Source: Nemertoderma westbladi
Lineage: Eukaryota > Animalia > Xenacoelomorpha
Assembly: GCA_032718475.1 (NCBI GenBank)
Contig: JAUCBJ010002736.1
Coordinates: forward strand, 2,143-66,142
DNA length: 64,000 nucleotides
Reading direction: 5' to 3'
Shown here: positions 1-60,226 of the stretch, piece after piece
Layout: each line of letters begins with the position of its first letter
Numbering within the stretch: the first letter of the stretch is position 1
Translations under genes and position numbers: made by a program
Notes under the pieces: generated by a model
Database searches by the model: none
What the model saw: only the letters and a program-made list of their open reading frames with translations
Told to the model about the DNA's origin: nothing

Positions 1-3000
1 ATTAACCACCGCTGTGTTTGTCCGGTCCCACCGTACCTGTTAGCTATTAACCACCGCTGTGTTTGTCCGGTCCCACCGTACCTGTTAGCTATTAACCACC
101 GCTGTGTTTGTCCGGTCCCACCGTACCTGTTAGCTATTAACCACCGGCTGTGTTTGTCCGGTCCCACCGTACCTGTTAGCTATTAACCACCGCTGTGTTT
201 GTCCGGTCCCACCGTACCTGTTAGCTATTAACCACCGCTGTGTTTGTCCGGTCCCACCGTACCTGTTAGCTATTAACCACCGCTGTGTTTGTCCGGTCCC
301 ACCGTACCTGTTAGCTATTAACCACCGCTGTGTTTGTCCGGTCCCACCGTACCTGTTAGCTATTAACCACCGCTGTGTTTGTCCGGTCCCACCGTACCTG
401 TTAGCTATTAACCACCGCTGTGTTTGTCCGGTCCCACCGTACCTGTTAGCTATTAACCACCGCTGTGTTTGTCCGGTCCCACCGTACCTGTTAGCTATTA
501 ACCACCGCTGTGTTTGTCCGGTCCCACCGTACCTGTTAGCTATTAACCACCGCTGTGTTTGTCCGGTCCCACCGTACCTGTTAGCTATTAACCACCGCTG
601 TGTTTGTCCGGTCCCACCGTACCTGTTAGCTATTAACCACCGCTGTGTTTGTCCGGTCCCACCGTACCTGTTAGCTATTAACCACCGCTGTGTTTGTCCG
701 GTCCCACCGTACCTGTTAGCTATTAACCACCGCTGTGTTTGTCCGGTCCCACCGTACCTGTTAGCTATTAACCACCGCTGTGTTTGTCCGGTCCCACCGT
801 ACCTGTTAGCTATTAACCACCGGCTGTGTTTGTCCGGTCCCACCGTACCTGTTAGCTAATAACCACCGCTGTGTTTGTCCGGTCCCACCGTACCTGTTAG
901 CTATTAACCACCGCTGTGTTTGTCCGGTCCCACCGTACCTGTTAGCTATTAACCACCGCTGTGTTTGTCCGGTCCCACCGTACCTGTTAGCTATTAACCA
1001 CCGCTGTGTTTGTCCGGTCCCACCGTACCTGTTAGCTATTAACCACCGCTGTGTTTGTCCGGTCCCACCGTACCTGTTAGCTATTAACCACCGCTGTGTT
1101 TGTCCGGTCCCACCGTACCTGTTAGCTATTAACCACCGCTGTGTTTGTCCGGTCCCACCGTACCTGTTAGCTATTAACCACCGCTGTGTTTGTCCGGTCC
1201 CACCGTACCTGTTAGCTATTAACCACCGGCTGTGTTTGTCCGGTCCCACCGTACCTGTTACCTATTAACCACCGCTGTGTTTGTCCGGTCCCACCGTACC
1301 TGTTAGCTATTAACCACCGCTGTGTTTGTCCGGTCCCACCGTACCTGTTAGCTATTAACCACCGCTGTGTTTGTCCGGTCCCACCGTACCTGTTAGCTAT
1401 TAACCACCGCTGTGTTTGTCCGGTCCCACCGTACCTGTTAGCTATTAACCACCGCTGTGTTTGTCCGGTCCCACCGTACCTGTTAGCTATTAACCACCGC
1501 TGTGTTTGTGCGGTCCCACCGTACCTGTTAGCTATTAACCACCGCTGTGTTTGTCCGGTCCCACCGTACCTGTTAGCTATTAACCACCGGCTGTGTTTGT
1601 GCGGTCCCACCGTACCTGTTAGCTAATAACCACCGCTGTGTTTGTCCGGTCCCACCGTACCTGTTAGCTATTAACCACCGCTGTGTTTGTCCGGTCCCAC
1701 CGTACCTGTTAGCTAATAACCACCGCTGTGTTTGTCCGGTCCCACCGTACCTGTTAGCTATTAACCACCGCTGTGTTTGTCCGGTCCCACCGTACCTGTT
1801 AGCTATTAACCACCGGCTGTGTTTGTGCGGTCCCACCGTACCTGTTAGCTAATAACCACCGCTGTGTTTGTCCGGTCCCACCGTACCTGTTAGCTATTAA
1901 CCACCGCTGTGTTTGTCCGGTCCCACCGTACCTGTTAGCTATTAACCACCGCTGTGTTTGTCCGGTCCCACCGTACCTGTTAGCTATTAACCACCGCTGT
2001 GTTTGTCCGGTCCCACCGTACCTGTTAGCTATTAACCACCGCTGTGTTTGTGTGTTCCCACCGTACCTGTTAGCTATTAACCACCGCTGTGTTTGTCCGG
2101 TCCCACCGTACCTGTTAGCTAATAACCACCGGCTGTGTTTGTCCGGTCCCACCGTACCTGTTAGCATTAACCACCGCTGTGTTTGTCCGGTCCCACCGTA
2201 CCTGTTAGCTATTAACCACCGCTGCGTTTGTCCGGTCCCACCGTACCTGTTAGATTAACCACCGCTGTGTTTGTCCGGTCCCACCGTACCTGTTAGCTAT
2301 TAACCACCGCTGTGTTTGTCCGGTCCCACCGTACCTGTTAGCTATTAACCACCGCTGTGTTTGTCCGGTCCCACCGTACCTGTTAGCTATTAACCACCGC
2401 TGTGTTTGTCCGGTCCCACCGTACCTGTTAGCTATTAACCACCGCTGTGTTTGTCCGGTCCCACCGTACCTGTTAGCTATTAACCACCGCTGTGTTTGTC
2501 CGGTCCCACCGTACCTGTTAGCTATTAACCACCGGCTGTGTTTGTGCGGTCCCACCGTACCTGTTAGCTAATAACCACCGCTGTGTTTGTCCGGTCCCAC
2601 CGTACCTGTTAGCTATTAACCACCGCTGTGTTTGTCCGGTCCCACCGTACCTGTTAGCTAATAACCACCGCTGTGTTTGTCCGGTCCCACCGTACCTGTT
2701 AGCTAATAACCACCGCTGTGTTTGTCCGGTCCCACCGTACCTGTTAGCTATTAACCACCGCTGTGTTTGTCCGGTCCCACCGTACCTGTTAGCTATTAAC
2801 CACCGCTGTGTTTGTCCGGTCCCACCGTACCTGTTAGCTAATAACCACCGCTGTGTTTGTCCGGTCCCACCGTACCTGTTAGCTATTAACCACCGCTGTG
2901 TTTGTCCGGTCCCACCGTACCTGTTAGCTATTAACCACCGCTGTGTTTGTCCGGTCCCACCGTACCTGTTAGCTAATAACCACCGCTGTGTTTGTCCGGT

Positions 3001-4625
3001 CCCACCGTACCTGTTAGCTAATAACCACCGCTGTGTTTGTCCGGTCCCACCGTACCTGTTAGCTATTAACCACCGCTGTGTTTGTCCGGTCCCACCGTAC
3101 CTGTTAGCTATTAACCACCGGCTGTGTTTGTGCGGTCCCACCGTACCTGTTAGCTAATAACCACCGCTGTGTTTGTCCGGTCCCACCGTACCTGTTAGCT
3201 ATTAACCACCGCTGTGTTTGTCCGGTCCCACCGTACCTGTTAGCTATTAACCACCGCTGTGTTTGTCCGGTCCCACCGTACCTGTTAGCTAATAACCACC
3301 GCTGTGTTTGTCCGGTCCCACCGTACCTGTTAGCTAATAACCACCGCTGTGTTTGTCCGGTCCCACCGTACCTGTTAGCTAATAACCACCGCTGTGTTTG
3401 TCCGGTCCCACCGTACCTTTTAGCTAATAACCACCGCTGTGTTTGTCCGGTCCCACCGTACCTGTTAGCTATTAACCACCGCTGTGTTTGTCCGGTCCGA
3501 CCGTACCTGTTAGCTATTAACCACCGCTGTGTTTGTCCGGTACCACCGTACCTGTTAGCTATTAACCACCGCTGTGTTTGTCCGGTCCCACCGTACTTGT
3601 TAGCTATTAACCACCGCTGTGTTTGTCCGGTCCCACCGTACCTGTTAGCTAATAACCACCGCTGTGTTTGTCCGGTCCCACCGTACCTGTTAGCTATTAA
3701 CCACCGCTGTGTTTGTCCGGTCCCACCGTACCTGTTAGCTATTAACCACCGCTGTGTTTGTCCGGTCCCACCGTACCTGTTAGCTATTAACCACCGCTGT
3801 GTTTGTCCGGTCCCACCGTACCTGTTAGCTATTAACCACCGCTGTGTTTGTCCGGTCCCACCGTACCTGTTAGCTATTAACCACCGCTGTGTTTGTCCGG
3901 TCCGACCGTACCTGTTAGCTATTAACCACCGCTGTGTTTGTCCGGTCCCACCGTACTTGTTAGCTAATAACCACCGCTGTGTTTGTCCGGTCCCACCGTA
4001 CCTGTTAGCTAATAACCACCGCTGTGTTTGTCCGGTCCCACCGTACCTGTTAGCTAATAACCACCGCTGTGTTTGTCCGGTCCCACCGTACCTGTTAGCT
4101 AATAACCACCGCTGTGTTTGTCCGGTCCCACCGTACCTGTTAGCTATTAACCACCGCTGTGTTTGTCCGGTCCCACCGTACCTGTTAGCTATTAACCACC
4201 GCTGTGTTTGTCCGGTCCCACCGTACCTGTTAGCTATTAACCACCGCTGTGTTTGTCCGGTCCCACCGTACCTGTTAGCTATTAACCACCGCTGTGTTTG
4301 TCCGGTCCCACCGTACCTGTTAGCTATTAACCACCGCTGTGTTTGTCCGGTCCCACCGTACCTGTTAGCTATTAACCACCGCTGTGTTTGTCCGGTCCCA
4401 CCGTACCTGTTAGCTAATAACCACCGCTGTGTTTGTCCGGTCCCACCGTACCTGTTAGCTAATAACCACCGCTGTGTTTGTCCGGTCCCACCGTACCTGT
4501 TAGCTAATAACCACCGCTGTGTTTGTCCGGTCCCTCCGTACCTGTTAGTTATTAACCACCGCTGTGTTTGTCCGGTCCCACCGTACCTGTTAGCTATTAA
4601 CCACCGCTGTGTTTGTCCGGTCCCA
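1..4625 (-). repeat. 45-bp minisatellite (at least 102 copies) made of the exon-9 end plus 5' splice site
   Basis: Unit in gene sense is GGGACCGGACAAACACAGCGGTGGTTAATAGCTAACAG|GTACGGT, i.e. the last 38 exon nt plus 7 intron nt. Runs off the window edge. Confidence 0.97.
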
Positions 4626-4758
4626 GCGTCCGCACTAAGGGGTTGTCCCGCTCGAACAGTTTTTCCGCCAATAAGAAACCCTTCGAAGTGCCCTTCCCCA
4701 TTCCCTAACGTTGAATTCGGACTGCAACTTGCGTCGGAATGATCGCTCAGACTTTGGT
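4587..4758 (-). CDS. TFCP2: TFCP2 exon 9 (start of SAM-like oligomerisation region); gene continues beyond window start
   Basis: TTTTAG| acceptor. Encodes DQSLS..PLSADAGTGQTQRWLIANR (cf. LLPTTTPQEAQQWLHRNR). Donor AACAG|GTACGG, phase 2. Confidence 0.85.
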
Positions 4759-4961
4759 CTAAAACAAATAAAATATATACGATAGGCAAAAATACGGGAT
4801 GTAAATAAGGGGCGGGGGGGGGGGGGGGGGGGTACCCCTACAAAAAAACTTAGTTTCAACATCAGGGGGTTTTAAAGAAATAAATTGATTGTGACTTGAG
4901 TATAAAGAAATTCTAGAACGCCTCAATAATTTTGAATTGGGTTGTTGTAACATACACTTAC

Positions 4962-5172
4962 CGAGTGAGGATAACTTGCCGCTCGTCTTTAGTTTTTTTG
5001 GCCGAAGTACGTCCGCGGGATTGGTGGATGTATCTGTTTGCTCGATACCTGATTGGTTGAAACTCGTGTCATATGGATTTTTAACTGAGGTCCGTTGTCC
5101 TGGAGACGGATAACCTTTCATTTGAGAAGGTTTTAATGAACAATTCACTCCTTTACGCGATTTTCCCTCAAC
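4962..5172 (-). CDS. TFCP2: TFCP2 exon 8 (low-complexity linker)
   Basis: Strong TTTTTAG| acceptor, 211 nt open frame VEGKSRKG..LSSL, donor G|GTAAGT. Phase 0 to 1 fits the neighbours. Confidence 0.7.
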
Positions 5173-6689
5173 CTAAAAAGCGTAAAAAGTTATATGAGAA
5201 TGAAAGATACCGAGTGCCGGAGGCAACCCGGCATTTAATGGGCAAATTTTCACAATTTTTTACTACTTCGGTCATAAGTATAAAAAATCCGAGCACTTAG
5301 AAATTTCCTGATTGTCTTTCTCAGTTTTTCTAACTCGTGGCTCAGTTAATCTTTAATGATCGTTTCAAATATCATGGAAAATTCGCTGTTAGCGCCATGC
5401 ATGGCGGTAGTTGTGGTACCAGCATCGTTTGATGGGGGTGGGCGGCTACCCCCTCCCGTGGTAAAATTTTAAAATTTTTGTTTTATATTTCGTCTGATGC
5501 TGAATTTAATGGGGACTTTAAATATTAAAACGGCTTGGTGAGATCTTTTCTAGTTCTCAATAAGTTATCGCTGTTTCCGTCTAACAGTTTGTCCGTCGAA
5601 ATTTAGACGACTGACTAACGTAAAAACAGACGTCGGAAATCACCGACCCCGAAAACCTCTATTGATAATTTCAGTGAGTTGTTATGAAGCAATTTAGTGC
5701 CAAACATTACTAACCGATTAACCGACCACAGACAGGTTTGAGGGGGAAAGTTGAAACTTTAAAGGAAATTATCTCGGAATTCACATTTTTCGATTTTTCT
5801 AAATACTACTCCTCCGCCATTTTTATCTCAAATTCAACAATTTATGGCTTTATTTGATTGGATGGCTTTTTTTCCGAGAGGTTGAAGATCTTGAAAAACT
5901 TCACATTTTTGGGAATTTTAATTTAATTTAATAATTTTAATTTAATTATTAAATTTATCAATTATATTTAATGAAAAAATTTGGATAAAAATTAAGGGAC
6001 TAGTGTTATTAGTGAAATATTTAATTCTGCTACTCGCCGATAGAGGGAAACAAAAAGTTTTCAAATTTAAATTTTTTTGCTCTTTGGCCTTCCCCACGTT
6101 GTTGGCTGAACACAACAACAGGAAGTGACATACAATACGTAGTTGGAGCTGTTTCCATGGAAATGAGATAGATAACCCCAATTGTTTTTCCAAAAATGAA
6201 CTTCATTTACTAAAATTTCCCTCACCATAAATCGATATAAGATTTTACTGGTACAGTTCTGTTTAATATTGTGTTTACCTATTTAATTTACCCTGCTCGT
6301 TGTATAGATAATGATATTTATTCTTACTAAAATTCGGGGGTGTCACGGTCCCATGTGACGTACACTAGACTTTCTGCTGTTATATTTCACTTTTCAGTTT
6401 GCCCCCATGTGAAGAATACCAGGTTTTCACAAAAGTCCCATGTCACGGGATTAACCCTGTGTACACTTCGACATCCCAAAGTTATTAACAACAATATTGT
6501 TATTTATTATATTTATTTATTAACAACAACTTCGGTTTGAAGAACTATCAAAAGCTTGAGTTCTAGGCCCCATATAAGTTGTGTCAATCTAGATCCCCTA
6601 ACAACCCATGATACAGAAGGGCGAATCTAACCAAAACAATAAACGGAAACATACGCGCATGATAAATAAATGATAAATTCAAGCTATAA

Positions 6690-7395
6690 AACACTTAATA
6701 AAGGCTACCAATTAAAGTCACTCCAAAATTGATGAATATTTCACCAGAAAAATTATATTATACCAATTTAAATAATATCCCAAAAAAAATTATTCAACAC
6801 CAAATAAAATAAAGTCACCACAAATAAAATTATTCAACACCAAAAACCAATTATTCACACCAAAACAATGACAAAACCCCCAAAATAATTACAAACTTTC
6901 CCAAAATAAGTACATATCGCCCCAAAATAAATACATACATAAATGGATATTCAATTCCCCCAAAATATTCAAGTATTCTACCAAAATAAACAGACTCTTA
7001 GTTACAGACTCTCAGTTGCAGAGAATATTGGTACGAGGATCGTTAGTATACGATGATTAAACATTTTGTTTGATTTATGGAAATAAATAATTAATGAATT
7101 TGTATTTGGTGTTATGAATATAATATAATATGAATATAGAATAAAATAGAATGAATATATATTTGGTGTTGGAAGAATTGTTTTTGGTTGACAAGTAATT
7201 ATTTTAGGGAGATTGAATACTTTTTGAGGTATGAATAATTGTTTTTGGGGACGAATAATTGTTTTTGGTGAGGGAGATATTCAAAATTGGGGGATGTAAA
7301 TTATTGGTGCTACAAAAAATATATTTGGTGCTAAATAATTGATTTTTGTGTCAAATCATCTAATTTGGGGCGGCATTCTATTAGTGGCGCTAATA
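6690..7395. repeat. Degenerate foldback-like inverted repeat in TFCP2 intron 7
   Basis: The left half is A/C-rich with ATTCAACACCAAAT motifs and the right half has the reverse-complement ATTTGGTGTTG motifs. Strand skew flips near 7030. Confidence 0.5.
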
Positions 7396-7562
7396 AAGGA
7401 GAAATAAAAAAAATACAAAATTATCATATATAAAATTCCAATAAAATTTCTACCGAAAAGTGAAAACCTGATATTCTTCACATGGGCGGGTGTCATAGGG
7501 GTTTGATACCAATATGGTTACGTTTTACACGGGTAATACGGTTGTATATTTAACTGACGTAC

Positions 7563-7750
7563 CTTGACCTGTTTGTATTGCTCAGCTAGATCGGCAAAAG
7601 ATAAATCCTTGGTGTCGATAGTAATAAGAGGTTGACTACCCATCGGTTGGTTTGCGATTAAGTGGAGGGGAAGGGGCGGTGGGGGTGGGGGAGGGGGAGG
7701 AGGGGGGCACTTCCCTTCCGATACCGAATCACGGCGCTTCGTTCCAGTAC
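7563..7750 (-). CDS. TFCP2: TFCP2 exon 7 (Pro-rich linker)
   Basis: TTAG| acceptor, phase 1. Open frame GTGTKRRDSVSEGKC-polyP..EQYKQVK; donor AAG|GTACGT. Phases fit the flanking exons; no homology support. Confidence 0.65.
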
Positions 7751-8150
7751 CTAAGCCAATCAACAGTTAGTCTATCATAACGTCATTCGGTCACATCCAG
7801 TGACGAATTCCACGAATTATTAGTTAGATTTATCATTACGGCTTATAATTCCTGGAATTTACGCCACAATATCTTATCTTTCTGAGAATACTATACTGTA
7901 ATGTAATGTATGTCTACTACACTGTAATCTTGTTTATTGGGATGATTGCTGCAATAGTCCGGTAAATATTGCATTACCTTGCATGGAAGTAAATGAAATA
8001 AACAACCCGACTTACCATACTGGTACCATTGAGGGTTTACCTAAAAGTTACCAAATTCTACACCAGATCGTGACTTTAGTTTCCATAATATTGTTCGATC
8101 TTGTACAGATTTACCTTGGTGTTGTTGGTACAGCAGCTGTATACACGTAC

Positions 8151-8382
8151 CTTGGGCAGGTGTCTGTCCCGTACCAGTAGGACTTCTAGCAGGCGCCCTC
8201 GGTAGAACAGCTGGGGAGGTAGGGTGACTCCAGTTCACCGGTATATCGTAGACGCATTGGGAGAGCAGCGTACACTCGTACGACGGCTGGTACTTCTGGG
8301 CCTCTTTAGCCGGCTTCCTTTCCAGTTTATCGCGATCTGTTTTACGTTTACGATCGGCGCCTTTCGGTTTAAATACCTTCAC
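8151..8382 (-). CDS. TFCP2: TFCP2 exon 6 (end of CP2 domain)
   Basis: Encodes VKVFKPKGADRKRKTDRDKLERKPAKEAQKYQPSYECTLL, matching the CP2 KVFKPKGADRKQKTDREK..YQPSY motif. Donor CAAG|GTACGT at 8150; an alternative in-frame donor lies at 8114. Confidence 0.85.
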
Positions 8383-8494
8383 CTGTAGATAAACAGATTA
8401 ACGATTCGTAATATTGATTAATTAGAGTTCCCGGGAAGGTTGGGCATTGAAATAATCTACGGCAAAATCGTAACATCGCTCAATGACATTGTTA

Positions 8495-8745
8495 GAAGCG
8501 TGTCTCGTCAAACCGATTGGTCACTCGCTTTTCTTATATAGCTAGGAGGTCCCAGGATCGATCCCTTGCCAAGGTAGTTACAATTTTGTAACTAGTGCGC
8601 CAGCCAATGCGGGGACCTGGCTTCTGCTGGGTGAGCAAAGAAAATAGATTGGATGTTTACGGGATGTTCACCCTTGGGAGTTAGTGTGGCGCCATCCCTT
8701 CCTTATAGGTAACAGCCACGAGATAATATCTTTCTGGTGCCTCCG
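8495..8745 (+). mobile_element. Possible degenerate tRNA-derived SINE
   Basis: GGAGGTCCCAGGATCGATCCC resembles a tRNA T-arm/B-box and is followed by a GC-richer body inside an AT-rich intron. Confidence 0.4.
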
Positions 8746-8817
8746 GTGTTTCGTGTTTCACACGTTCACCGATCACTTTAGTTACCCAACTAGACATTCA
8801 TCCACAATCTCGCCTAC

Positions 8818-8976
8818 CTGGGCACTAGCAGAGAATACTAGATTGGGATCCTGGCTGACATCTGAACTAGGAACAGACTGATTGGGTAACATAAAAGTAT
8901 CCAACTGGATTCGGAAAGGTACTCCTCTCTCCCCTCCGTGCTTCCTTTGTGTAAATTCTGTACCGATACAATGGAC
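8818..8976 (-). CDS. TFCP2: TFCP2 exon 5
   Basis: TTTTAG| acceptor. Encodes [35 protein letters not shown], the CP2 signature ([28 protein letters not shown]). Donor CAG|GTAGGC. Confidence 0.93.
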
Positions 8977-9021
8977 CTAAAATAAACGAAAATATATCAG
9001 CATCAATTTAAAATACAGTTG

Positions 9022-12000
9022 GCGGGTTGCTTGGATCCCTACCTACCTGTATAAACACACTGACGGGTTGCTTTGGATCCCTCCCTACCTGTATAAACAC
9101 ACTAGCGGGTTGCTTGGATCCCTCCCTACCTGTATAAACACACCTGACGGGTTGCTTTGGATCCCTCCTTACCTGTATAAACACACTAGCGGGTTGCTTG
9201 GATCCCTCCCTACCTGTATAAACACACCTGACGGCTTTGGATCCCTCCCTACCTGTATAAACACACTAGCGGGTTGCTTGGATCCCTCCCTACCTGTATA
9301 AACACACTAGCGGGTTGCTTGGATCCCTCCCTACCTGTATAAACACACTGACGGGTTGCTTTGGATCCCTCCCTACCTGTATTAACACACTAGCGGGATG
9401 CTTGGATCCCTCCCTACCTGTATAAACACACTGACGGGTTGCTTGGATCCCTCCCTACCTGTATTAACACACTAGCGGGTTGCTTGGATCCCCCCTACCT
9501 GTATAAACACACTGACGGGTTGCTTGGATCCCTCCCTACCTGTATTAACACACTAGCGGGTTGCTTGGATCCCTCCCTACCTGTATAAACACACTAGCGG
9601 GTCGCTTGGATCCCTCCCTACCTGTATAAACACACTGACGGGTTGCTTGGATCCCTCCCTACCTGTATAAACACACTGACGGGTTGCTTGGATCCCTCCC
9701 TACCTGTATTAACACACTAGCGGGTTGCTTGGATCCCTCCCTACCTGTATAAACACACTAGCGGGTCGCTTGGATCCCTCCCTACCTGTATTAACACACT
9801 AGCGGGTTGCTTGGATCCCTCCCTACCTGTATAAACACACCTGACGGGTTGCTTTGGATCCCTCCCTACCTGTATAAACACACTAGCGGGTTGCTTGGAT
9901 CCCTCCCTACCTGTATAAACACACTGACGGGTTGCTTGGATCCCTCCCTACCTGTATAAACACACCTACGGGTTGCTTGGATCCCTCCCTAGCTGTATAA
10001 ACACACTGACGGGTTGCTTGGATCCCTCCCTATCTGTATAAACACACCTACGGGTTGCTTGGACCCCTCCCTACCTGTATAAACACACTGACGGGTTGCT
10101 TGGATCCCTCCCTACCTGTATTAACACACTAGCGGGTTGCTTGGATCCCTCCCTACCTGTATAAACACACCTGACGGGTTGCTTTGGATCCCTCCCTACC
10201 TGTATAAACACACTAGCGGGTTGCTTGGATCCCTCCCTACCTGTATAAACACACTGACGGGTTGCTTGGATCCCTCCCTACCTGTATTAACACACTAGCG
10301 GGTTGCTTGGATCCCTCCCTACCTGTATAAACACACTAGCGGGTCGCTTGGATCCCTCCCTACCTGTATAAACACACTGACGGGTTGCTTGGATCCCTCC
10401 CTACCTGTATAAACACACTGACGGGTTGCTTGGATCCCTCCCTACCTGTATTAACACACTAGCGGGTTGCTTGGATCCCTCCCTACCTGTATAAACACAC
10501 CTGACGGGTTGCTTTGGATCCCTCCCTACCTGTATAAACACACTAGCGGGTTGCTTGGATCCCTCCCTACCTGTATAAACACACTAGCGGGTTGCTTGGA
10601 TCCCTCCCTACCTGTATAAACACACTGACGGGTTGCTTTGGATCCCTCCCTACCTGTATTAACACACTAGCGGGATGCTTGGATCCCTCCCTACCTGTAT
10701 AAACACACTGACGGGTTGCTTGGATCCCTCCCTACCTGTATAAACACACTAGCGGGTTGCTTGGATCCCTCCCTACCTGTATAAACACACTGACGGGTTG
10801 CTTGGATCCCTCCCTACCTGTATTAACACACTAGCGGGTTGCTTGGATCCCTCCCTACCTGTATAAACACACTAGCGGGTTGCTTGGATCCCTCCCTACC
10901 TGTATAAACACACTAGCGGGTTGCTTTGGATCCCTCCCTACCTGTATTAACACACTAGCGGGTTGCTTGGATCCCCCCTACCTGTATAAACACACTAACG
11001 GGTTGCTTTGGATCCCTCCCTACCTGTATAAACACACTAGCGGGTTGCTTGGATCCCTCCCTACCTGTATAAACACACTAGCGGGTTGCTTGGATCCCTC
11101 CCTACCTGTATAAACACACTGACGGGTTGCTTTGGATCCCTCCCTACCTGTATTAACACACTAGCGGGTTGCTTGGATCCCTCCCTACCTGTATAAACAC
11201 ACTGACGGGTTGCTTGGATCCCTCCCTACCTGTATAAACACACTAGCGGGTTGCTTGGATCCCTCCCTACCTGTATAAACACACTGACGGGTTGCTTGGA
11301 TCCCTCCCTACCTGTATAAACACACTGACGGGTTGCTTGGATCCCTCCCTACCTGTATAAACACACTAGCGGGTTGCTTGGATCCCTCCCTACCTGTATA
11401 AACACACTGACGGGTTGCTTGGATCCCTCCCTACCTGTATTAACACACTAGCGGGTTGCTTGGATCCCTCCCTACCTGTATAAACACACTAGCGGGTTGC
11501 TTGGATCCCTCCCTACCTGTATAAACACACCTGACGGGTTGCTTGGATCCCTCCCTACCTGTATAAACACACTGACGGGTTGCTTGGATCCCTCCCTACC
11601 TGTATTAACACACTAGCGGGTTGCTTGGATCCCTCCCTACCTGTATAAACACACTGAGCGGGTTGCTTGGATCCCTCCCTACCTGTATAAACACACTAGC
11701 GGGTTGCTTTGGATCCCTCCCTACCTGTATAAACACACTAGCGGGTTGCTTGGATCCCTCCCTACCTGTATAAACACACTGACGGGTTGCTTGGATCCCT
11801 CCCTACCTGTATTAACACACTAGCGGGTTGCTTGGATCCCTCCCTACCTGTATAAACACACTAGCGGGTTGCTTGGATCCCTCCCTACCTGTATTAACAC
11901 ACTAGCGGGTTGCTTGGATCCCTCCCTACCTGTATAAACACACCTGACGGGTTGCTTTGGATCCCTCCCTACCTGTATAAACACACTGACGGGTTGCTTG

Positions 12001-12830
12001 GATCCCTCCCTACCTGTATAAACACACTAGCGGGTTGCTTGGATCCCTCCCTACCTGTATAAACACACTGACGGGTTGCTTTGGATCCCTCCCTACCTGT
12101 ATTAACACACTAGCGGGTTGCTTGGATCCCTCCCTACCTGTATAAACACACTGACGGGTTGCTTGGATCCCTCCCTACCTGTATTAACACACTAGCGGGT
12201 TGCTTTGGATCCCTCCCTACCTGTATAAACACACTTAGCGGGTTGCTTGGATCCCTCCCTACCTGTATAAACACACTGACGGGTTGCTTGGATCCCTCCC
12301 TACCTGTATTAACACACTAGCGGGTTGCTTGGATCCCTCCCTACCTGTATAAACACACTAGCGGGTCGCTTGGATCCCTCCCTACCTGTATAAACACACT
12401 AGCGGGTTGCTTGGATCCCTCCCTACCTGTATAAACACACTGACGGGTTGCTTGGATCCCTCCCTACCTGTATAAACACACTGACGGGTTGCTTGGATCC
12501 CTCCCTACCTGTATAAACACACCTACGGGTTGCTTGGACCCCTCCCTACCTGTATAAACACACCTGACGGGTTGCTTGGATCCCTCCCTACCTGTATAAA
12601 CATACTAGCGGGTTGCTTGGATCCCTCCCTACCTGTATAAACATACTAGCGGGTTGCTTGGATCCCTCCCTACCTGTATTAACACACTAGCGGGTTGCTT
12701 GGATCCCTCCCTACCTGTATAAACACACTGACGGGTTGCTTGGATCCCTCCCTACCTGTATAAACACACTGACGGGTTGATTGGATCCCTCCTACCTGTA
12801 TAAACACACTAGCGGGTTGCTTAGGATCCC
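9022..12830 (-). repeat. 41-bp minisatellite (about 92 copies) made of the exon-4 end plus 5' splice site
   Basis: Unit in gene sense is AAGCAACCCGCTAGTGTGTTTATACAG|GTAGGGAGGGATCC; the first 27 nt equal the exon codons KQPASVFIQ. Confidence 0.97.
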
Positions 12831-12951
12831 ACAGGAACTCCCCCTGGTTTATGGGACCATGACGGGCTCCCGCTATACCAAAGGACTGCGGTACATCGAT
12901 GTAGAGCATGCGTTCCCCTGGTCTGTTAGCGAACCACGAAACCAGCTGCTC
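12796..12951 (-). CDS. TFCP2: TFCP2 exon 4
   Basis: Encodes EQLVSWFANRPGERMLYIDVPQSFGIAGARHGPINQGEFLWDPKQPASVFIQ (cf. [38 protein letters not shown]). 156 nt; donor CAG|GTAGGA. Confidence 0.92.
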
Positions 12952-13179
12952 CTACGGGGTGATAAACAAACGCAAGATTGAAGGTGGTATAAGAAATAAA
13001 TATACCGGTAATTAATAATGCAATACAATACATTATACGGCGTATTTGTTACACTAAAGTGCCATGGCCTGGCCAACCGTAACCATATTCTACAACGGCT
13101 TCTACACAATCAACCCTGTCTGCCAGAGTGCCAGTACTGTACCACTTATATCTACATCATACTGTAGGATACCGGATAC

Positions 13180-13295
13180 CTGTTCATTATATTGGTGTTT
13201 TCGTTCGTGAAATAGAACTCGAACAACGCTCTTGAGAAATTCACCGAATTCGTCTGGATCGCCAAGTTTTTTTAAATTAATTTCGTAACTCTGAC
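13180..13295 (-). CDS. TFCP2: TFCP2 exon 3
   Basis: TGCAG| acceptor. Encodes GQSYEINLKKLGDPDEFGEFLKSVVRVLFHERKHQYNEQ. Donor CAG|GTATCC; 116 nt with consistent phases. Confidence 0.92.
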
Positions 13296-13393
13296 CTGCA
13301 ATCGCAATAATCAAGCAATTACAACGGGTGGTTTATGAAAACAGTATTTTTAGAATAGGTCTAGACCAACTTCGATGCAAAATGAATTGAGAA

Positions 13394-16065
13394 TGAACTC
13401 ACCTTGGTATAGCTGCGTACTGAACTCACCTTGGTATAGCTGCGTACTGGACTCACCTTGGTATAGCTGCGTACTGAACTCACCTTGGTATAGCTGCGTA
13501 CTGAACTCACCTTGGTATAGCTGCGTACTGAACTCACCTTATTATAGCTGCGTACTGAACTCACCTTGGTATAGCTGCGTACTGAACTCACCTTGGTATA
13601 GCTGCGTACTGAACTCACCTTGGTATAGCTGCGTACTGAACTCACCTTGGTATAGCTGCGTACTGAACTCACCTTGGTATAGCTGCGTACTGAACTCACC
13701 TTGGTATAGCTGCGTACTGGACTCACCTTGGTATAGCTGCGTACTGAACTCACCTTGGTATAGCTGCGTACTGAACTCACCTTGGTATAGCTGCGTACTG
13801 AACTCACCTTGGTATAGCTGCGTACTGAACTCACCTTGGTATAGCTGCGTACTGAACTCACCTTGGTATAGCTGCGTACTGAACTCACCTTGGTATAGCT
13901 GCGTACTGAACTCACCTTGGTATAGCTGCGTACTGAACTCACCTTGGTATAGCTGCGTACTGAACTCACCTTGGTATAGCTGCGTACTGAACTCACCTTG
14001 GTATAGCTGCGTACTGAACTCACCTTGGTATAGCTGCGTACTGAACTCACCTTGGTATAGCTGCGTACTGAACTCACCTTGGTATAGCTGCGTACTGAAC
14101 TCACCTTGGTATAGCTGCGTACTGAACTCACCTTGGTATAGCTGCGTACTGAACTCACCTTGGTATAGCTGCGTACTGAACTCACCTTGGTATAGCTGCG
14201 TACTGAACTCACCTTGGTATAGCTGCGTACTGAACTCACCTTGGTATAGCTGCGTACTGAACTCACCTTGGTATAGCTGCGTACTGAACTCACCTTGGTA
14301 TAGCTGCGTACTGAACTCACCTTGGTATAGCTGCGTACTGAACTCACCTTGGTATAGCTGCGTACTGAACTCACCTTGGTATAGCTGCGTACTGAACTCA
14401 CCTTGGTATAGCTGCGTACTGAACTCACCTTGGTATAGCTGCGTACTGAACTCACCTTGGTATAGCTGCGTACTGAACTCACCTTGGTATAGCTGCGTAC
14501 TGAACTCACCTTGGTATAGCTGCGTACTGAACTCACCTTGGTATAGCTGCGTACTGAACTCACCTTGGTATAGCTGCGTACTGAACTCACCTTGGTATAG
14601 CTGCGTACTGAACTCACCTTGGTATAGCTGCGTACTGAACTCACCTTGGTATAGCTGCGTACTGAACTCACCTTGGTATAGCTGCGTACTGAACTCACCT
14701 TGGTATAGCTGCGTACTGAACTCACCTTGGTATAGCTGCGTACTGAACTCACCTTGGTATAGCTGCGTACTGAACTCACCTTGGTATAGCTGCGTACTGA
14801 ACTCACCTTGGTATAGCTGCGTACTGAACTCACCTTGGTATAGCTGCGTACTGAACTCACCTTGGTATAGCTGCGTACTGAACTCACCTTGGTATAGCTG
14901 CGTACTGAACTCACCTTGGTATAGCTGCGTACTGAACTCACCTTGGTATAGCTGCGTACTGAACTCACCTTGGTATAGCTGCCTACTGAACTCACCTTGG
15001 TATAGCTGCGTACTGAACTCACCTTGGTATAGCTGCGTACTGAACTCACCTTGGTATAGCTGCGTACTGAACTCACCTTGGTATAGCTGCGTACTGAACT
15101 CACCTTGGTATAGCTGCGTACTGAACTCACCTTGGTATAGCTGCGTACTGAACTCACCTTGGTATAGCTGCCTACTGAACTCACCTTGGTATAGCTGCGT
15201 ACTGAACTCACCTTGGTATAGCTGCGTACTGAACTCACCTTGGTATAGCTGCGTACTGACTCACCTTGGTATAGCTGCGTACTGAACTCACCTTGGTATT
15301 ATAGCTGCGTACTGAACTCACCTTGGTATAGCTGCGTACTGAACTCACCTTGGTATAGCTGCGTACTGAACTCACCTTGGTATAGCTGCGTACTGAACTC
15401 ACCTTGGTATAGCTGCCTACTGAACTCACCTTGGTATAGCTGCGTACTGAACTCACCTTGGTATAGCTGCGTACTGAACTCACCTTGGTATAGCTGCGTA
15501 CTGAACTCACCTTGGTATAGCTGCGTACTGAACTCACCTTGGTATAGCTGCCTACTGAACTCACCTTGGTATAGCTGCGTACTGAACTCACCTTGGTATA
15601 GCTGCGTACTGAACTCACCTTGGTATTATAGCTGCGTACTGAACTCACCTTGGTATAGCTGCGTACTGAACTCACCTTGGTATAGCTGCGTACTGAACTC
15701 ACCTTGGTATAGCTGCGTACTGAACTCACCTTGGTATAGCTGCGTACTGGACTCACCTTAGTATAGCTGCGTACTGAACTCACCTTGGTATAGCTGCGTA
15801 CTGAACTCATCTTGGTATTATAGCTGCGTACTGAACTCACCTTGGTACAGCTGCGTACTGGACTCACCTTAGTATAGCTGCGTACTGAACTCACCTTGGT
15901 ATAGCTGCGTACTGGACTCACCTTGGTATAGCTGCGTACTGAACTCACCTTGGTATTATAGCTGCGTACTGAACTCACCTTGGTATAGCTGCGTACTGGA
16001 CTCACCTTAGTATAGCTGCGTACTGAACTCACCTTGGTATAGCTGCGTACTGAACTCACCTTGGT
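13394..16065 (-). repeat. 27-bp minisatellite (about 98 copies) containing the exon-2 5' splice site
   Basis: Unit in gene sense is GTACGCAGCTATACCAAG|GTGAGTTCA. ACGCAGCTATACCAAG matches the exon end ACGTATCTCAACCAAG at 12/16 positions. Confidence 0.97.
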
Positions 16066-16194
16066 TGAGATACGTGATACTCTCTTCGTTAAGTTTAGTA
16101 GCTGGCGAGGTCGCGGCATTAAATATAAACTGAAATCCAGACTCCTTGAATATTGGTACAGCCAAGAGGTCGTTCATATTATAAGCACCGGCTC
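16060..16194 (-). CDS. TFCP2: TFCP2 exon 2 (start of CP2 DNA-binding domain)
   Basis: CTAG| acceptor. Encodes [45 protein letters not shown] (cf. [43 protein letters not shown]). Donor AAG|GTGAGT. Confidence 0.92.
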
Positions 16195-17460: not shown

Positions 17461-17848
17461 TAAATTCGGTTCCCAGACCGCTCAAGCTGGCCTCAAAGTC
17501 CGATACCAACGACGCCTGGGGGTCGTCTAGAGGGAGATTCCAGGAGGCGATGTTAACAACATCCCTCGTGGAGAACCCATTGTCTTCGTCGATAGAGGAA
17601 TCAGCGGTGTCTGCTGTGAACATCCGGGAGCCTGGGAACAGTCGTTCCACCAAACGTTCAGTTGTTCCGTCCGATTCGCTACAAGAGGTTGCTGTGCTGG
17701 AGGAGTCAGTCTGGGACCCCAGCTGTCCCAACGGGACACCACGCCCGCAAGGGACAGCAATAGCCCCAGTACCAGGGACAGCAATAGCCCCGTTCAGATT
17801 CATCGACGGAGCGAATGTAATAAAGTTGTCCGGTTGTAAATTACTCAT
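17461..17848 (-). CDS. TFCP2: TFCP2/LSF-like transcription factor, coding exon 1
   Basis: ATG at 17848. The C-terminal part ASWNLPLDDPQASLVSDFEASLSGLGTEF resembles the TFCP2 N-terminus ([33 protein letters not shown]). Ends A|GTGAGT donor at 17460, phase 1. Confidence 0.8.
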
Positions 17849-23011: not shown

Positions 23012-23290
23012 ATGTTGCGGCGATTGTGTCCCCGTTGTGACAACTATAGCAGCCGTTGTGGCGATTGTGTCCCCCGTTGTGACAACTATAGCATCCGTTG
23101 TGGCGATTGTTTCTTCCGTTGTTGCAACTATAACCTCCGTAGTGGCGATTGTTTCCTCCGTTGTGGCAACTATAACCTCCGTAGTGGCGATTGTTTCTTC
23201 CGTTGGGGCAACTATAACCTCCGTAGTGGCGATTGTTTCTTCCGTTGGGGCAACTACAGTATAACATTTGTTGTGGCGATTGTTTCCAGA
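23012..23290. repeat. 42-bp (2x21) minisatellite GTTGTGGCGATTGTTTCCTCCGTTGTGGCAACTATAACCTCC
   Basis: About 6 units seen directly; the same family recurs at 31250-31720. Confidence 0.85.
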
Positions 23291-30961: not shown

Positions 30962-31249
30962 CGCTACTTTATACATAATGATAATGATGTCCATTGTATA
31001 TCATATACGTGTAAAATAGCGTGGTTAATAGATGAGTCTCTAAATTTATACGGGCTTGGTATCGTTTTTTGTGTTCTACACAAAACGTTATTTTTTGTGT
31101 AAAACACAAAACGTTATTTTTTGTGTAAAACACAAAACGTTACCGGTATTTTTTGTGTAAAACACAAAAAGATGCATTACTGTAATACATCAATACAGAT
31201 TAATATCAGTAGTTTTAACTAAATCAATGTTGATGAACGTTAGATAAAC

Positions 31250-31720
31250 TGTTGTGGCGATTGTTTCCTCCGTTGTGGCAACTATAACCTCCGTAGTGGC
31301 GATTGTTTCCTTCGTTGTGGCAACTATATCATCTGTTGTGGCGATTGTTTCCTCCGTTGTGGCAACTATATCATCTGTTGTGGCGATTGTTTCCTTCGTT
31401 GTGGCAACTATAACCTCCGTAGTGGCGATTGTTTCCCCCGTTGTGGCAACTATAGCATCTGTTGTGGCGATTGTTTCCCCCGTTGTGGCAACTAACGCAT
31501 CTGTTGTGGCGATTGTTTCCCCCGTTGTGGCAACTAACGCATCCGTTGTGGCGATTGTTTCCCCCGTTGTGGCAACTAACGCATCTGTTGTGGCGATTGT
31601 GTCCCCCGTTGTGGCAACTATAGCATCCGTTGTGGCGATTGTTTCCCCCGTTGTGGAAACTAACGCATCTGTTGTGGCGATTGTGTCCCCCGTTGTGGCA
31701 ACTATAGCATCCGTTGTTGT
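31250..31720. repeat. 42-bp (2x21) minisatellite, same family as 23012-23290
   Basis: GTTGTGGCGATTGTTTCCCCCGTTGTGGCAACTA.. about 11 units. Confidence 0.88.
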
Positions 31721-56224: not shown

Positions 56225-57353
56225 CCGTTAGCGACGATGCTCTGTCTGCCACCGAACCGGTAAGTAACTGCTTCTCAGTGGCGCCATCTAGCGGAAATGT
56301 TCAGAGTAATTCCACCCCAACCATCGACTCGGATGACGTCACTTATCCGCTAGCAACCACCCCGGCGGACGGGTCCCACAACCGTAACCTAGCAACCACT
56401 CCTACCGACGGCTCCCGTAACCTAGCAACGACCCCGACGCCCGGTACGTCGACGCCGCCCAGGGGTTTCCGTCGCCACGCCCACAGTGTTGGTGCCCTAA
56501 TGAATCTGGGCGTTACGACCAACAACGCCCTAACGAACCTAGTGGGCGCCAGTCCCGACGAATCGCCCCCGAGTAGGGCCCACGCGGCGTCCACACCCAA
56601 GTTCCCGGATGATTCCCGGTACAGCGACAAGAGTCTGCTATCCCCGGACAGCGAACCGCGTCCGCGCGGACAGCAGCGGAGTCGGACTGTCAGCTGGACC
56701 GACGTTCTCTCCCACACTTACCGCTCCCGCTCCGAAACATTCAGGAAAGTATTCAGGAAGGACGCGGATAAATGCCTCGAGAAGGACGAGAGATTGCTCT
56801 CCGATTACTCGTGCGCGCTGCAGAAAGATATCCTGGTACAAGGCCGAATGTACACGTCGCAGTACTACATCTCTTTCTATTCGAAGATTTTCGCTTTCGA
56901 AACGGCAATCCGTATAAAATTAAGGGATGTTGTTTCTATAACGAAGGAGCGAACCGCTAAAGTGATTCCCAACGCGATACAGATTTGTACGACTAACGAT
57001 AAGTATTTCTTTACGTCGTTCACCAGTCGCGATAAGGGTTACACAATGCTGTTCCGTTTGTGGCAGAACTGTTTGTTGGAGTTGCCGACGACGGAGCACA
57101 ACCTCTGGGAAATCGTGCGACACAACTACACGTCGCGTCGCACCGCGTTGACGCCGACTAGTGCGACGGAGCCGGGGGTGGGGGCGTCGGATGAGTCTGT
57201 GGGGGCGGACGAGAGCGACGGGGGCGGGAGTGGAGTTGGGGGCGAGGAGGGACCCAGTAGTGACCCCGGGTTACTGCTCAACGCCGCGGATAAGGGCAGT
57301 TGCGATGGAGACACCAGCGAGACTCACACCGTCGGGGTTACCGATACGTCAAG
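56225..57353 (+). CDS. GRAMD1: GRAMD1/Aster-like sterol transporter, GRAM-domain exon
   Basis: TTTTAG| acceptor. TYRSRSETFRKVF..ERLLSDYSCALQKDILVQGRMY..FYSKIF..KERTAKVIPNAIQICT..KYFFTSFTSRDKGYTMLFRLWQN is the GRAMD1 GRAM domain. Donor AAG|GTCAGT. Confidence 0.9.
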
Positions 57354-57974: not shown

Positions 57975-60226
57975 CCAGTCATATAGAGCAGACACACCAT
58001 ACATTGTATGATAACACACAATCCCCCAGACACACCTACACTGTATGCTAACAGTCCCAGTCATACAGTCCCCCAGACACACCTACACTGTATGCTAACA
58101 GACTCAGTCATACAGTCCCCCAGACACACCTACACTGTATGGTAACAGACTCAGTGATACAGTCCCCCAGACACACCTACACTGTATGCTAACAGATTCA
58201 GTCATACAGTCTCCCAGACACACCTACACTGTATGCTAACAGACTCAGTCATACAGTCCCCCAGACACACCTACACTGTATGCTAACAGACTCAGTCATA
58301 CAGTCCCCCAGACACACCTACACTGTATGCTAACAGATTCAGTCATACAGTCCCCCAGACACACCTACACTGTATGCTAACAGACTCAGTCATACAGTCC
58401 CCCAGACACACCTACACTGTATGGTAACAGACTCAGTCATACAGTCCCCCGACACATCTACACTGTATGCTAACATTCTCAGCCATACAGTCTCCCAGAC
58501 ACACCTACACTGTATGCTAACAGACTCAGTCATACAGTCCCCCAGACAAACCTACACTGTATGCTAACAGACTCAGTCATACAGTCCCCCAGACAAACCT
58601 ACACTGTATGGTAACAGACTCAGTCATACAGTCCCCCAGACACACCTACACTGTATGCTAACAGACTCAGTCATACAGTCCCCCAGACACACCTACACTG
58701 TATGCTAACAGACTCAGTCATACAGTCCCCCAGACACACCTACACTGTATGCTAACAGACTCAGTCATACAGTCCCCCATATAGACTCACCATACACTGT
58801 GTATGGCAACAGTCTAGTCATACAGTCCCCCAGACACACCTACACTGTATGCTAACAGACTCAGTCATACAGTCCCCCAGACAAACCTACACTGTATGCT
58901 AACAGATCCAGTCATACAGTCCCCCAGACACACCTACACTGTATGCTAACAGACTCCGTCATACAGTCCCCCAGACACACCTACACTGTATGCTAACAGA
59001 CTCAGTCATACAGTCCCCCAGACACACCTACACTGTATGCTAACAGACTCCGTCATACAGTCCCCCAGACACACCTACACTGTATGGTAACAGACTCAGT
59101 CATACAGTCCCCCAGACACACCTACACTGTATGGTAACAGACTCAGTCATACAGTCCCCCATATAGACTCACCATACACTGTGTATTGCAACAGTCTAGT
59201 CATACAGTCTCCCAGACACACCTACACTGTATGCTAACAGACTCAGTCATACAGTCCCCCAGACACATCTACACTGTATGCTAACAGACTCAGTCATACA
59301 GTCTCCCAGACACACCTACACTGTATGCTAACAGACTCAGTCATACAGTCCCCCATATAGACTCACAATACACTGTGTATGGCAACAGTCTAGTCATACC
59401 GTCTCCCAGACACACCTACGCTGTATGCTAACAGTCTCAGTCATACAGTCCCCCAGACAAACCTACACTGTATGCTAACAGACTCAGTCATACAGTCCCC
59501 CAGACACACCTACACTGTATGCTAACAGTCCCAGTCATACAGTCCCCCATATAGACTCACAATACACTGTGTATGGCAACAGTCTAGTCATACCGTCTCC
59601 CAGACACACCTACGCTGTATGCTAACAGTCTCAGTCATACAGTCCCCCAGACAAACCTACACTGTATGCTAACAGACTCAGTCATACAGTCCCCCAGACA
59701 CACCTACACTGTATGCTAACAGTCCCAGTCATACAGTCCCCCATATAGACTCACAATACACTGTGTATGGCAACAGTCTAGTCATACCGTCTCCCAGACA
59801 CACCTACGCTGTATGCTAACAGTCTCAGTCATACAGTCCCCCAGACAAACCTACACTGTATGCTAACAGACTCAGTCATACAGTCCCCCAGACACATCTA
59901 CACTGTATGCTAACAGACTCAGTCATACAGTCCCCCAGACACATCTACACTGTATGCTAACAGACTCAGTCATACAGTCCCCCATATAGACTCACAATAC
60001 ACTGTGTATGGCAACAGTCTAGTCATACCGTCTCCCAGACACACCTACGCTGTATGCTAACAGTCTCAGTCATACAGTCCCCCAGACAAACCTACACTGT
60101 ATGCTAACAGACTCAGTCATACAGTCCCCCAGACACACCTACACTGTATGCTAACAGTCCCAGTCATACAGTCCCCCATATAGACTCACCACACACTGTG
60201 TATTGCAACAGTCTAGTCATACCGTC
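57975..60226. repeat. 47-bp intronic minisatellite with higher-order structure
   Basis: Unit CAGTCATACAGTCCCCCAGACACACCTACACTGTATGCTAACAGACT, about 45 copies. A long variant (CCCCATATAGACTCAC..) recurs at about 59355, 59548, 59742, 59983 and 60177. Confidence 0.93.

What the first reader, a model, noticed from the sequence alone, without database searches (positions are those of the whole stretch)
1..16065. Three introns of one TFCP2 gene are each built from about 100 tandem copies of their own exon-end plus 5' splice site
Seen in sequence: three unrelated minisatellites (45, 41 and 27 bp) each begin exactly at a TFCP2 exon end and each unit contains that exon's terminal bases plus its GT donor. 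Copy numbers are similar (at least 102, about 92, about 98), giving roughly 300 donors in one pre-mRNA of a conserved and apparently intact transcription factor gene. Established: tandem duplication of an AG|GT-containing segment is a proposed intron-gain route, and competing donors are often resolved toward the acceptor-proximal site. Inference: three independent expansions centred on donors suggest either a donor-targeted amplification process (transcription/R-loop or rolling-circle-type expansion at exon-intron junctions) or a function such as a U1 snRNP sink, telescripting, or a copy-number rheostat of productive versus NMD splicing. I do not know of a described system like this.
Basis: partly seen in the sequence, partly recalled or inferred. 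Interest (0 to 1): 0.93.

Follow-up and report, generated by a model that had tools for sequence, protein, structure and literature searches.

The report
Three splice-donor minisatellites in one gene
In an invertebrate TFCP2 gene, three introns each begin with about 100 head-to-tail copies of the preceding exon end and its splice signal, yet the spliced transcript seen keeps only the true exon at the two arrays checked, so this is a very large but likely harmless case of the 'mirage' repeats known from lancelets and a few human genes.

Summary
The arrays are real. A minus-strand TFCP2/LSF gene (nine exons, open frame) carries donor-spanning minisatellites in 3 of 9 introns: 27 bp (99 donor-like sites), 41 bp (92) and 45 bp (at least 102, cut by the window edge). 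The 45- and 41-bp units copy about 38 and 33 exon bases; the 27-bp unit shares only 6 exactly. Array words are high-depth in DNA runs of two studies. One run holds spliced contigs that leave the exon at the first donor of the 45- and 41-bp arrays, with no array sequence; its 10 listed exon differences are all synonymous. The 27-bp array was not tested on RNA. The class is described: lancelet 'mirages' (two donor arrays in PGBD5) and human F7, CBS, 6-16, LMNB2, PDGF, where the first donor wins. This scan has noted single arrays of this kind before on other DNA (46 notes, at least 19 genomes, unchecked). Nothing supports intron gain, proximal-donor use or a regulatory role. Unexplained: three large arrays at donors of one gene is far above the window's background (P about 1e-5 to 2e-4, before selection bias), which hints at a genome-wide donor bias that could not be tested.

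The parts
17461..17848 (-). TFCP2 coding exon 1 (from first ATG; predicted)
   Evidence: open frame, GT donor; end aligns with TFCP2 N-terminus in blastp; not seen directly in RNA
16060..16194 (-). Exon 2; its donor is the first site of the 27-bp array
   Evidence: CP2 Pfam 4e-5, PDB 8y7v TFCP2
13394..16065 (-). Array A3: 27-bp unit x ~98 in intron 2; 6 exon bases exact + 9 intron bases + 12 diverged or foreign bases; 99 donor-like sites
13296..13402 (-). Residual intron 2: last donor copy to true acceptor, 107 nt
13180..13295 (-). Exon 3
   Evidence: CP2 Pfam 2e-5
12796..12951 (-). Exon 4; its donor is the first site of the 41-bp array and is the one used
   Evidence: PDB 8y7v 9e-11; X4 contig runs from exon 5 through one exon-end copy into unique exon 4 sequence
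9022..12830 (-). Array A2: 41-bp unit x ~92 in intron 4; ~33 exon bases + 7-8 intron bases; 92 donor-like sites
8977..9046 (-). Residual intron 4: last donor copy to true acceptor, 70 nt
8818..8976 (-). Exon 5
   Evidence: CP2 Pfam 1e-6; spliced joints in X4
8151..8382 (-). Exon 6; a second donor-like site lies 36 nt downstream and is not used in X4
7563..7750 (-). Exon 7
   Evidence: joints skipping 400 and 2390 nt in X4
4962..5172 (-). Exon 8
   Evidence: joints in X4
4587..4758 (-). Exon 9; its donor is the first site of the 45-bp array and is the one used
   Evidence: X4 contig leaves the window here into an off-window exon
1..4629 (-). Array A1: 45-bp unit x at least 102 in intron 9; 38-39 exon bases + 6-7 intron bases; runs off the window

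Best explanation
Three introns of a working TFCP2 gene start with tandem copies of the exon end and donor, and the transcript seen uses the first donor at the two arrays tested, so the arrays are likely tolerated 'mirage' minisatellites rather than a regulatory device. Shown: anatomy, open frame, first-donor product at A1 and A2 at contig level, block-wise repetition of unit variants. Inferred: each array began as one 27-45 bp tandem duplication across the exon-intron junction (for A1 the intron start resembles the exon 45 nt upstream, 10 of 12 letters, which would allow slippage), then grew by slippage or unequal exchange, as other minisatellites in this repeat-rich genome did. Inferred: such duplications survive at donors because the exon and first donor stay intact, all added DNA falls inside the intron, and the spliceosome commits to the most upstream donor (shown experimentally for human F7). 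Because every unit starts with GT and ends with AG, stepwise removal would give the same mRNA; the data cannot tell one step from several. The lineage is probably prone to mirages, as lancelets are; why donors rather than intron interiors seed the arrays is not explained.
For: X4 contigs skip introns 5-8 exactly, hold one copy of the exon 4 end followed by unique exon 4 sequence, and leave exon 9 into an off-window exon. X4 depth in the two array-touching bins equals the exon contig alone (810.1 vs 810.1; 310.9 vs 310.9). 10 of 10 listed exonic differences in X4 are synonymous. Distinct substitutions in the donor 9-mer: 6 of 32 against 7.5 expected, so no clear selection for or against spare donors. 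Repeated four-unit variant words exceed shuffles in A1 (6 vs 0.6, P=0.002) and A2 (11 vs 0.6, P=0.0002), not in A3 (0 vs 0.26). No special RNA structure (z 0.27, 0.39, -0.01) and spare donors about as unpaired as the true one. Five other arrays of 0.4-3.7 kb in the window hold 0, 0, 0, 0 and 2 donor-like motifs. Precedents with undisturbed splicing: PMC1557585, PMC3087553, PMC3902484.
Against: Ordinary seeding does not predict 3 of 3 arrays of this gene at donors: product of overlap chances 2e-4; Poisson from the window's background 1.3e-5; both post hoc. None of 13 variants that spread to 4 or more copies lies in the donor 9-mer (P=0.023; post hoc, events counted by hand). The two arrays with visible ends sit in the two shortest residual introns (70 and 107 nt against 203-2390; 1 in 28). 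X4 is one run, labelled 'DNA?' by the tool and read as RNA only from its joints; contigs drop rare forms; its allele may lack the arrays. A3 was not tested on RNA.
Confidence: 0.6

Rival explanations
1. Donor-biased origin: in this lineage a transcription- or splicing-coupled process (pausing, R-loops or breaks at 5' splice sites) preferentially seeds or expands duplications across donors, so a sizeable share of all donors carries large arrays. The arrays would still be neutral for the protein.
For: 3 of 9 TFCP2 donors against 0 of 8 acceptors; P 1e-5 to 2e-4 against the window background. Faint single junction copies behind two more donors (exon 6: 8 nt, P~0.012; exon 3: 7 nt, P~0.05; uncorrected, 9 array-free donors tested). 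Spread variants avoid the donor 9-mer, 0 of 13. A1 and A2 are G-rich on the RNA strand (skew 0.24, 0.25). PMC3087553 calls the mechanism of mirage formation unclear.
Against: Donor versus acceptor is not significant (Fisher P=0.12). 0 of 3 putative donors of the neighbouring Aster gene carry copies and its 2.2-kb intronic array is not donor-derived. A3 has little skew (0.08). The window was picked for this feature. Lancelet mirages occur at both boundaries (PMC3087553). Survival bias alone explains donor over acceptor.
Confidence: 0.25
2. Functional decoy arrays: about 300 spare donors bind U1, protect the nascent RNA, or divert a tunable share of transcripts to nonsense-mediated decay, setting TFCP2 dose.
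For: 290 of 293 sites keep GT. Donor 3 onward in A3, donor 4 onward in A2 and donor 34 onward in A1 would carry stops, so leakage could feed decay. Spread variants avoid the donor.
Against: No array-bearing contig in X4. Donors 2-33 of A1 would give stop-free in-frame inserts rather than decay. Distinct mutations hit donors at the neutral rate. Units are 93-98% alike, so high donor retention needs no selection. Studied precedents show little or no effect on splicing.
Confidence: 0.07
3. Artefact or gross inflation: short donor duplications were stretched to about 100 copies by amplification or assembly.
For: The 3' three quarters of A3 is nearly uniform (6 of 72 non-consensus units). Relative depths disagree between runs (A1 about 1000, 127, 67; A2 about 146, 15, 53), even between two runs of one sample. 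X1 may be the source of the assembly.
Against: Array words, including the same one-base unit variant of A2, are high-depth in two studies. Variants recur in multi-unit blocks. The tool states that these depths are not copy numbers.
Confidence: 0.08

Closest known systems
Lancelet 'mirage' minisatellites: Adh3, globins BflGb6/BflGb9, troponin C, PGBD5 (PMC3087553 and PMC3902484, matching passages read; original Adh3 paper PMC117041 not held)
   Same: Repeat unit spans an exon-intron boundary and duplicates the splice signal; splicing reported undisturbed; more than one array per gene (PGBD5: 60-bp and 108-bp repeats, each abutting a 5' splice site); concerted turnover.
   Different: Copy numbers read were 2-7 (PGBD5) and 3-6 (BflGb6) against about 100 here; three arrays, all at donors; the animal is not close to Branchiostoma (neighbouring Aster GRAM region 55-57% identical, no better than to molluscs or arthropods), so an independent origin is inferred.
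Human donor-spanning VNTRs: F7 intron 7 (37 bp x 5-9), 6-16 (25 pseudo-sites), CBS (15-20 units), LMNB2 (100 bp x 10-15), PDGF (81 bp x 16-18) (PMC1557585; abstract, introduction, start of results and part of discussion read: parts 1 and 4 of 6)
   Same: First unit spans the exon end; identical pseudo-donors follow; the most upstream donor is used (F7, LMNB2, PDGF), with some use of the next two in 6-16 and CBS.
   Different: One array per gene and 4- to 20-fold fewer copies; leakage to the next donors was not detectable with the contig data here.
Intron gain by tandem duplication of an AGGT segment (Rogers model; ATP2A1; fission yeast cases; as summarised in PMC4974935, passages read)
   Same: Each unit here is formally a GT...AG segment between AG|GT junctions.
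   Different: The duplications span existing donors; introns 2 and 4 keep their own unique acceptors, so no new intron position is made.
TFCP2/LSF subfamily of CP2 transcription factors
   Same: CP2 domain hits on four exons; about 52-53% identity over 270-280 aa to proteins named TFCP2/UBP1; only PDB hit is TFCP2 8y7v.
   Different: Longer low-complexity N-terminus and linker; the C-terminal part lies outside the window.

Membership tests
Mirage / donor-spanning minisatellite | Tandem unit spans an exon-intron boundary | tested here: met
   39, ~33 and 6 exact exon bases plus intron start in A1, A2, A3
Mirage / donor-spanning minisatellite | Splice signal reiterated in the units | tested here: met
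   102, 92, 99 donor-like sites, 290 of 293 with GT
Mirage / donor-spanning minisatellite | Normal mRNA made from the authentic, most upstream donor | tested here: met
   for A1 and A2, one run, contig level; A3 not tested directly (contig length leaves 66 nt beyond the predicted coding exons: weak)
Mirage / donor-spanning minisatellite | Turnover by block duplication or concerted evolution | tested here: met
   P=0.002 (A1), 0.0002 (A2); not seen in A3
Mirage / donor-spanning minisatellite | Length polymorphism between alleles or somatic instability | not testable with these tools
   contig depths differ between runs but are not copy numbers
Intron gain by tandem duplication (Rogers model) | New intron whose GT and AG both come from a duplicated exonic segment | tested here: not met
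   introns 2 and 4 end at unique acceptors 107 and 70 nt beyond the last donor copy; the end of intron 9 is off the window
Recursive (zero-length exon) splicing | AG|GT junctions inside the intron | tested here: met
   99 of 102 CAG|GT in A1, 90 of 92 in A2, 98 of 99 AAG|GT in A3; automatic for a copied junction
Recursive (zero-length exon) splicing | Splicing intermediates or saw-tooth nascent RNA | not testable with these tools
   only contigs available; exon-to-unit splices would regenerate the same junction
TFCP2/LSF subfamily | CP2 DNA-binding domain closest to TFCP2/UBP1 | tested here: met
   (names of the 10 proteins looked up or their cluster members are TFCP2/UBP1/CP2-like where specific; none is named grainyhead)
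TFCP2/LSF subfamily | C-terminal SAM-like domain (recalled as the subfamily mark) | tested here: inconclusive
   exon 9 alone gives no Pfam hit; the domain would continue off the window

The most novel reading that the evidence does not exclude
This animal has a genome-wide, 5'-splice-site-coupled expansion process that turns several percent or more of its donors into kilobase arrays of about 100 intact donor copies, keeping units with an intact donor as the ones that spread. It would make the open question of how mirage repeats arise, and how one donor is chosen among a hundred identical ones, testable on thousands of natural replicates.
Probability: 0.25. Interest if true: 0.65.

Novelty: new member of a known kind. 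Interest (0 to 1): 0.33.

Why it matters
As it stands, it is an extreme natural test of first-donor choice: the authentic site wins against about 90-100 identical downstream sites, even when the last of them lies 70 nt from the acceptor. It extends mirage repeats, with several per gene, to another animal lineage. If donors prove enriched genome-wide, the species would be the best system to find out why exon-intron junctions seed minisatellites, which the lancelet literature leaves open. It also warns annotators: donors 2-33 of the 45-bp array are in frame and stop-free and could mislead gene prediction.

Tried and rejected
No whole genome is held, so no genome-wide enrichment test. The run search listed no RNA holder on record; X4 is read as RNA only from its joints. 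Donor use at the 27-bp array remains untested on RNA. Intron gain rejected (unique acceptors). Proximal-donor use rejected for A1 and A2. An array-free paralogue as the source of the transcript is unlikely: 11 differing letters in about 900 aligned, and two of X4's variants are shared with a DNA contig of X3 at this locus; an array-free allele is not excluded. Structural masking of spare donors: no support. 'Founder units must be multiples of three' (45, 27, and 42 if A2 lost one base; all stop-free; 1 in 27 by chance): dropped, because units in papers read are 37, 100, 81, 60, 108 and 157 bp (3 of 6) and those given in this scan's unchecked notes are 35, 52, 53, 35, 76, 31 and 45 bp (1 of 7). 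Similar copy number as a meaningful feature: dropped (A1 truncated; depth unreliable). Homologue search with exon 5 alone gave one uninformative hit. No earlier notes for this genome or look-alike stretches. Literature searches found no genome-wide test of donor enrichment and no gene with three arrays of about 100 copies; the library lacks most subscription papers and the original Adh3 paper, and no supplements were read. Note look-ups for several arrays in one gene or genome-wide enrichment gave no matching report.
Full report
Observation. Tandem Repeats Finder reports 45-bp x102.8 (1-4629), 41-bp x92.4 (9022-12830) and 27-bp x98.6 (13394-16065) arrays, 93-98% alike within each. Reading the minus strand gives nine exons between 17848 and 4587 with GT-AG introns and an open frame of about 585 codons. 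Four exons hit Pfam CP2, exons 4 and 2 hit only TFCP2 in the PDB (8y7v), and the spliced model is 52-53% identical over 270-280 aa to proteins named TFCP2 or UBP1. The neighbouring Aster gene has no close named relative (best 57-61% over the GRAM region to molluscs, arthropods and fish; 55-57% to Branchiostoma), so the host is an animal without a near named relative among those hits and not close to Branchiostoma. No genome is held.

Anatomy. A3 (27 bp) follows exon 2, A2 (41 bp) exon 4 and A1 (45 bp) exon 9. They hold 99, 92 and at least 102 donor-like sites counting the true ones; 290 of 293 keep GT. The A1 unit equals the last 45 exon bases at 43 positions, with the last 39 exact; the intron start matches the exon 45 nt upstream at 10 of 12 letters, a ready slippage point. 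The A2 unit is about 33 exon bases plus 7-8 intron bases, one base shorter than the exon copy; 14 of 91 units have a base at that place. The A3 unit shares only 6 exon bases exactly and 12 of the last 18 (P=0.057 for the extra six): either an old, diverged 27-bp duplication or a 15-bp duplication around a 12-bp filler. Introns 2 and 4 end in unique tails of 107 and 70 nt from the last donor copy; the six array-free introns are 203-2390 nt. So the arrays grew inside existing introns.

Are they real? Array words are high-depth in DNA runs of two studies (X1; X2 and X3), and a one-base unit variant of A2 is present in all three. Relative depths disagree between runs and the tool says they are not copy numbers, so presence is shown and length is not; X1 may be the assembly's source. 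Unit variants recur in four-unit blocks beyond shuffles in A1 (P=0.002) and A2 (P=0.0002) but not A3, whose variants cluster at the exon-proximal end (13 of the first 24 units, 6 of the next 72). That is minisatellite turnover, not random error.

Which donor is used? Run X4 is labelled 'DNA?' but its contigs skip introns 5, 6, 7 and 8 exactly, at depth 869-970, and the three other runs show none of these joints. Upstream of exon 5 the contig holds one copy of the exon 4 end and continues with letters that match unique exon 4 (12831-12860); downstream of exon 9 it leaves the window into other sequence that continues the frame for the 30 letters shown. X4 depth in the two bins that touch arrays equals the exon contig alone. 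So at A1 and A2 the mature product is that of the first donor and no array RNA is assembled. The 10 exonic differences listed for X4 are all synonymous (the piece table counts 11, one is not listed). Limits: one run; contigs drop rare forms; X4's own allele may lack the arrays; A3 was not tested directly (the contig's length leaves 66 nt beyond the predicted coding exons, so at most two extra units if it reaches the start codon); one-step and stepwise removal give the same product because each unit is GT...AG.

Selection on spare donors. Distinct substitutions fall in the donor 9-mer at the neutral rate (6 of 32, 7.5 expected). Against that, none of 13 variants present in four or more copies lies there (P=0.023, post hoc). 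Use of A1 donors 2-33, A2 donor 3 or A3 donor 2 would give stop-free in-frame inserts; later ones carry stops. The arrays fold no better than shuffled-unit arrays and spare donors are about as open as the true one.

More than chance? All three large arrays of the gene span donors: product of overlap chances 2e-4. Five other arrays of at least 400 bp in 38 kb give an expectation of 0.04 at nine donors, P(3 or more)=1.3e-5. These are post hoc for a window chosen for the feature. Acceptors: 0 of 8 (Fisher P=0.12); three putative Aster donors: 0 of 3; 3 of 12 donors overall, 95% interval 5-57%, biased upward. Two more TFCP2 donors have faint single copies (P~0.012 and 0.05 uncorrected, of 9 tested). 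Some donor bias in this genome is therefore likely; its cause is open.

Comparison with what is known. PMC1557585 (parts 1 and 4 of 6 read) describes the human F7 intron 7 VNTR whose first unit spans the exon end, lists 6-16, CBS, LMNB2 and PDGF as like cases, and shows by mutation that the most upstream donor is chosen. PMC3087553 (passages) reports 'mirages' in lancelet globins and Adh3 (units 10-72 bp), at both boundaries, with normal splicing, length instability and an unclear mechanism. PMC3902484 (passages) reports two such repeats in one lancelet gene, PGBD5, each abutting a 5' splice site, 2-7 copies. PMC2812944 (abstract and passages) finds repeats at exon-intron boundaries in human duplicated genes; PMC4974935 (passages) summarises the Rogers intron-gain model; PMC13196383 (passages) added nothing specific. 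The original Adh3 paper was not held; that most Adh3 minisatellites are mirages is my recall. Searches (listings only, apart from the papers named) showed no genome-wide donor-enrichment test and no gene with three arrays of this size. This scan's notes list 46 findings with these words in at least 19 genomes, among them arrays of about 377 and 140 copies (unchecked), so a single large array is not unusual; none of the 16 shown reports three in one gene.

Verdict. Most likely (0.6) the arrays are tolerated by-products: seeded by short junction-spanning duplications, expanded like other minisatellites, and harmless because the first donor is taken. A donor-coupled mutational process is the live alternative (0.25) and would be the interesting outcome; function (0.07) and inflation (0.08) have little support. 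Interest 0.33.

Noticed in passing
window:8114-8150 (-): A second donor-like site 36 nt behind the exon 6 donor shares 8 junction letters with it and is in frame; X4 uses the first. Possibly the trace of an old single duplication (P~0.012 uncorrected).
   Followed up: partly
window:13166-13180 (-): A 7-base direct duplication at the exon 3 donor (P~0.05).
   Followed up: partly
window:56206-57811 (+): GRAM-domain Aster/GRAMD1-like gene, divergent from TFCP2; a 47-bp array of 2.2 kb (58018-60178) starts about 200 nt behind a putative donor and is not derived from it. A donor-like site at 56260 lies inside the long open frame.
   Followed up: partly
window:23613-30961: Element bounded by 576-bp direct repeats, 96.9% alike, with broken open frames and many internal simple repeats; a 42-bp minisatellite family lies on both sides (23014-23286, 31249-31717). 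One ORF tested had no Pfam hit. Likely a decayed LTR element.
   Followed up: partly
window:36147-43007 (-): Uninterrupted 2286-codon BEL/Pao retrotransposon polyprotein frame (Peptidase_A17, DUF1759, DUF5641, integrase zinc domain).
   Followed up: partly
window:50280-54796: A 2.2-kb block holding a G-rich 45-bp minisatellite is duplicated in tandem (91.6% alike).
   Followed up: no
window:33075-33830 (-): 251-codon open frame without a Pfam hit, in a stretch that looks like another mobile element.
   Followed up: no
window:6230-7600: Intron 7 holds very high-copy dispersed repeats (summed depth 1e4-1e5 in DNA runs against about 6-25 for single-copy parts).
   Followed up: no
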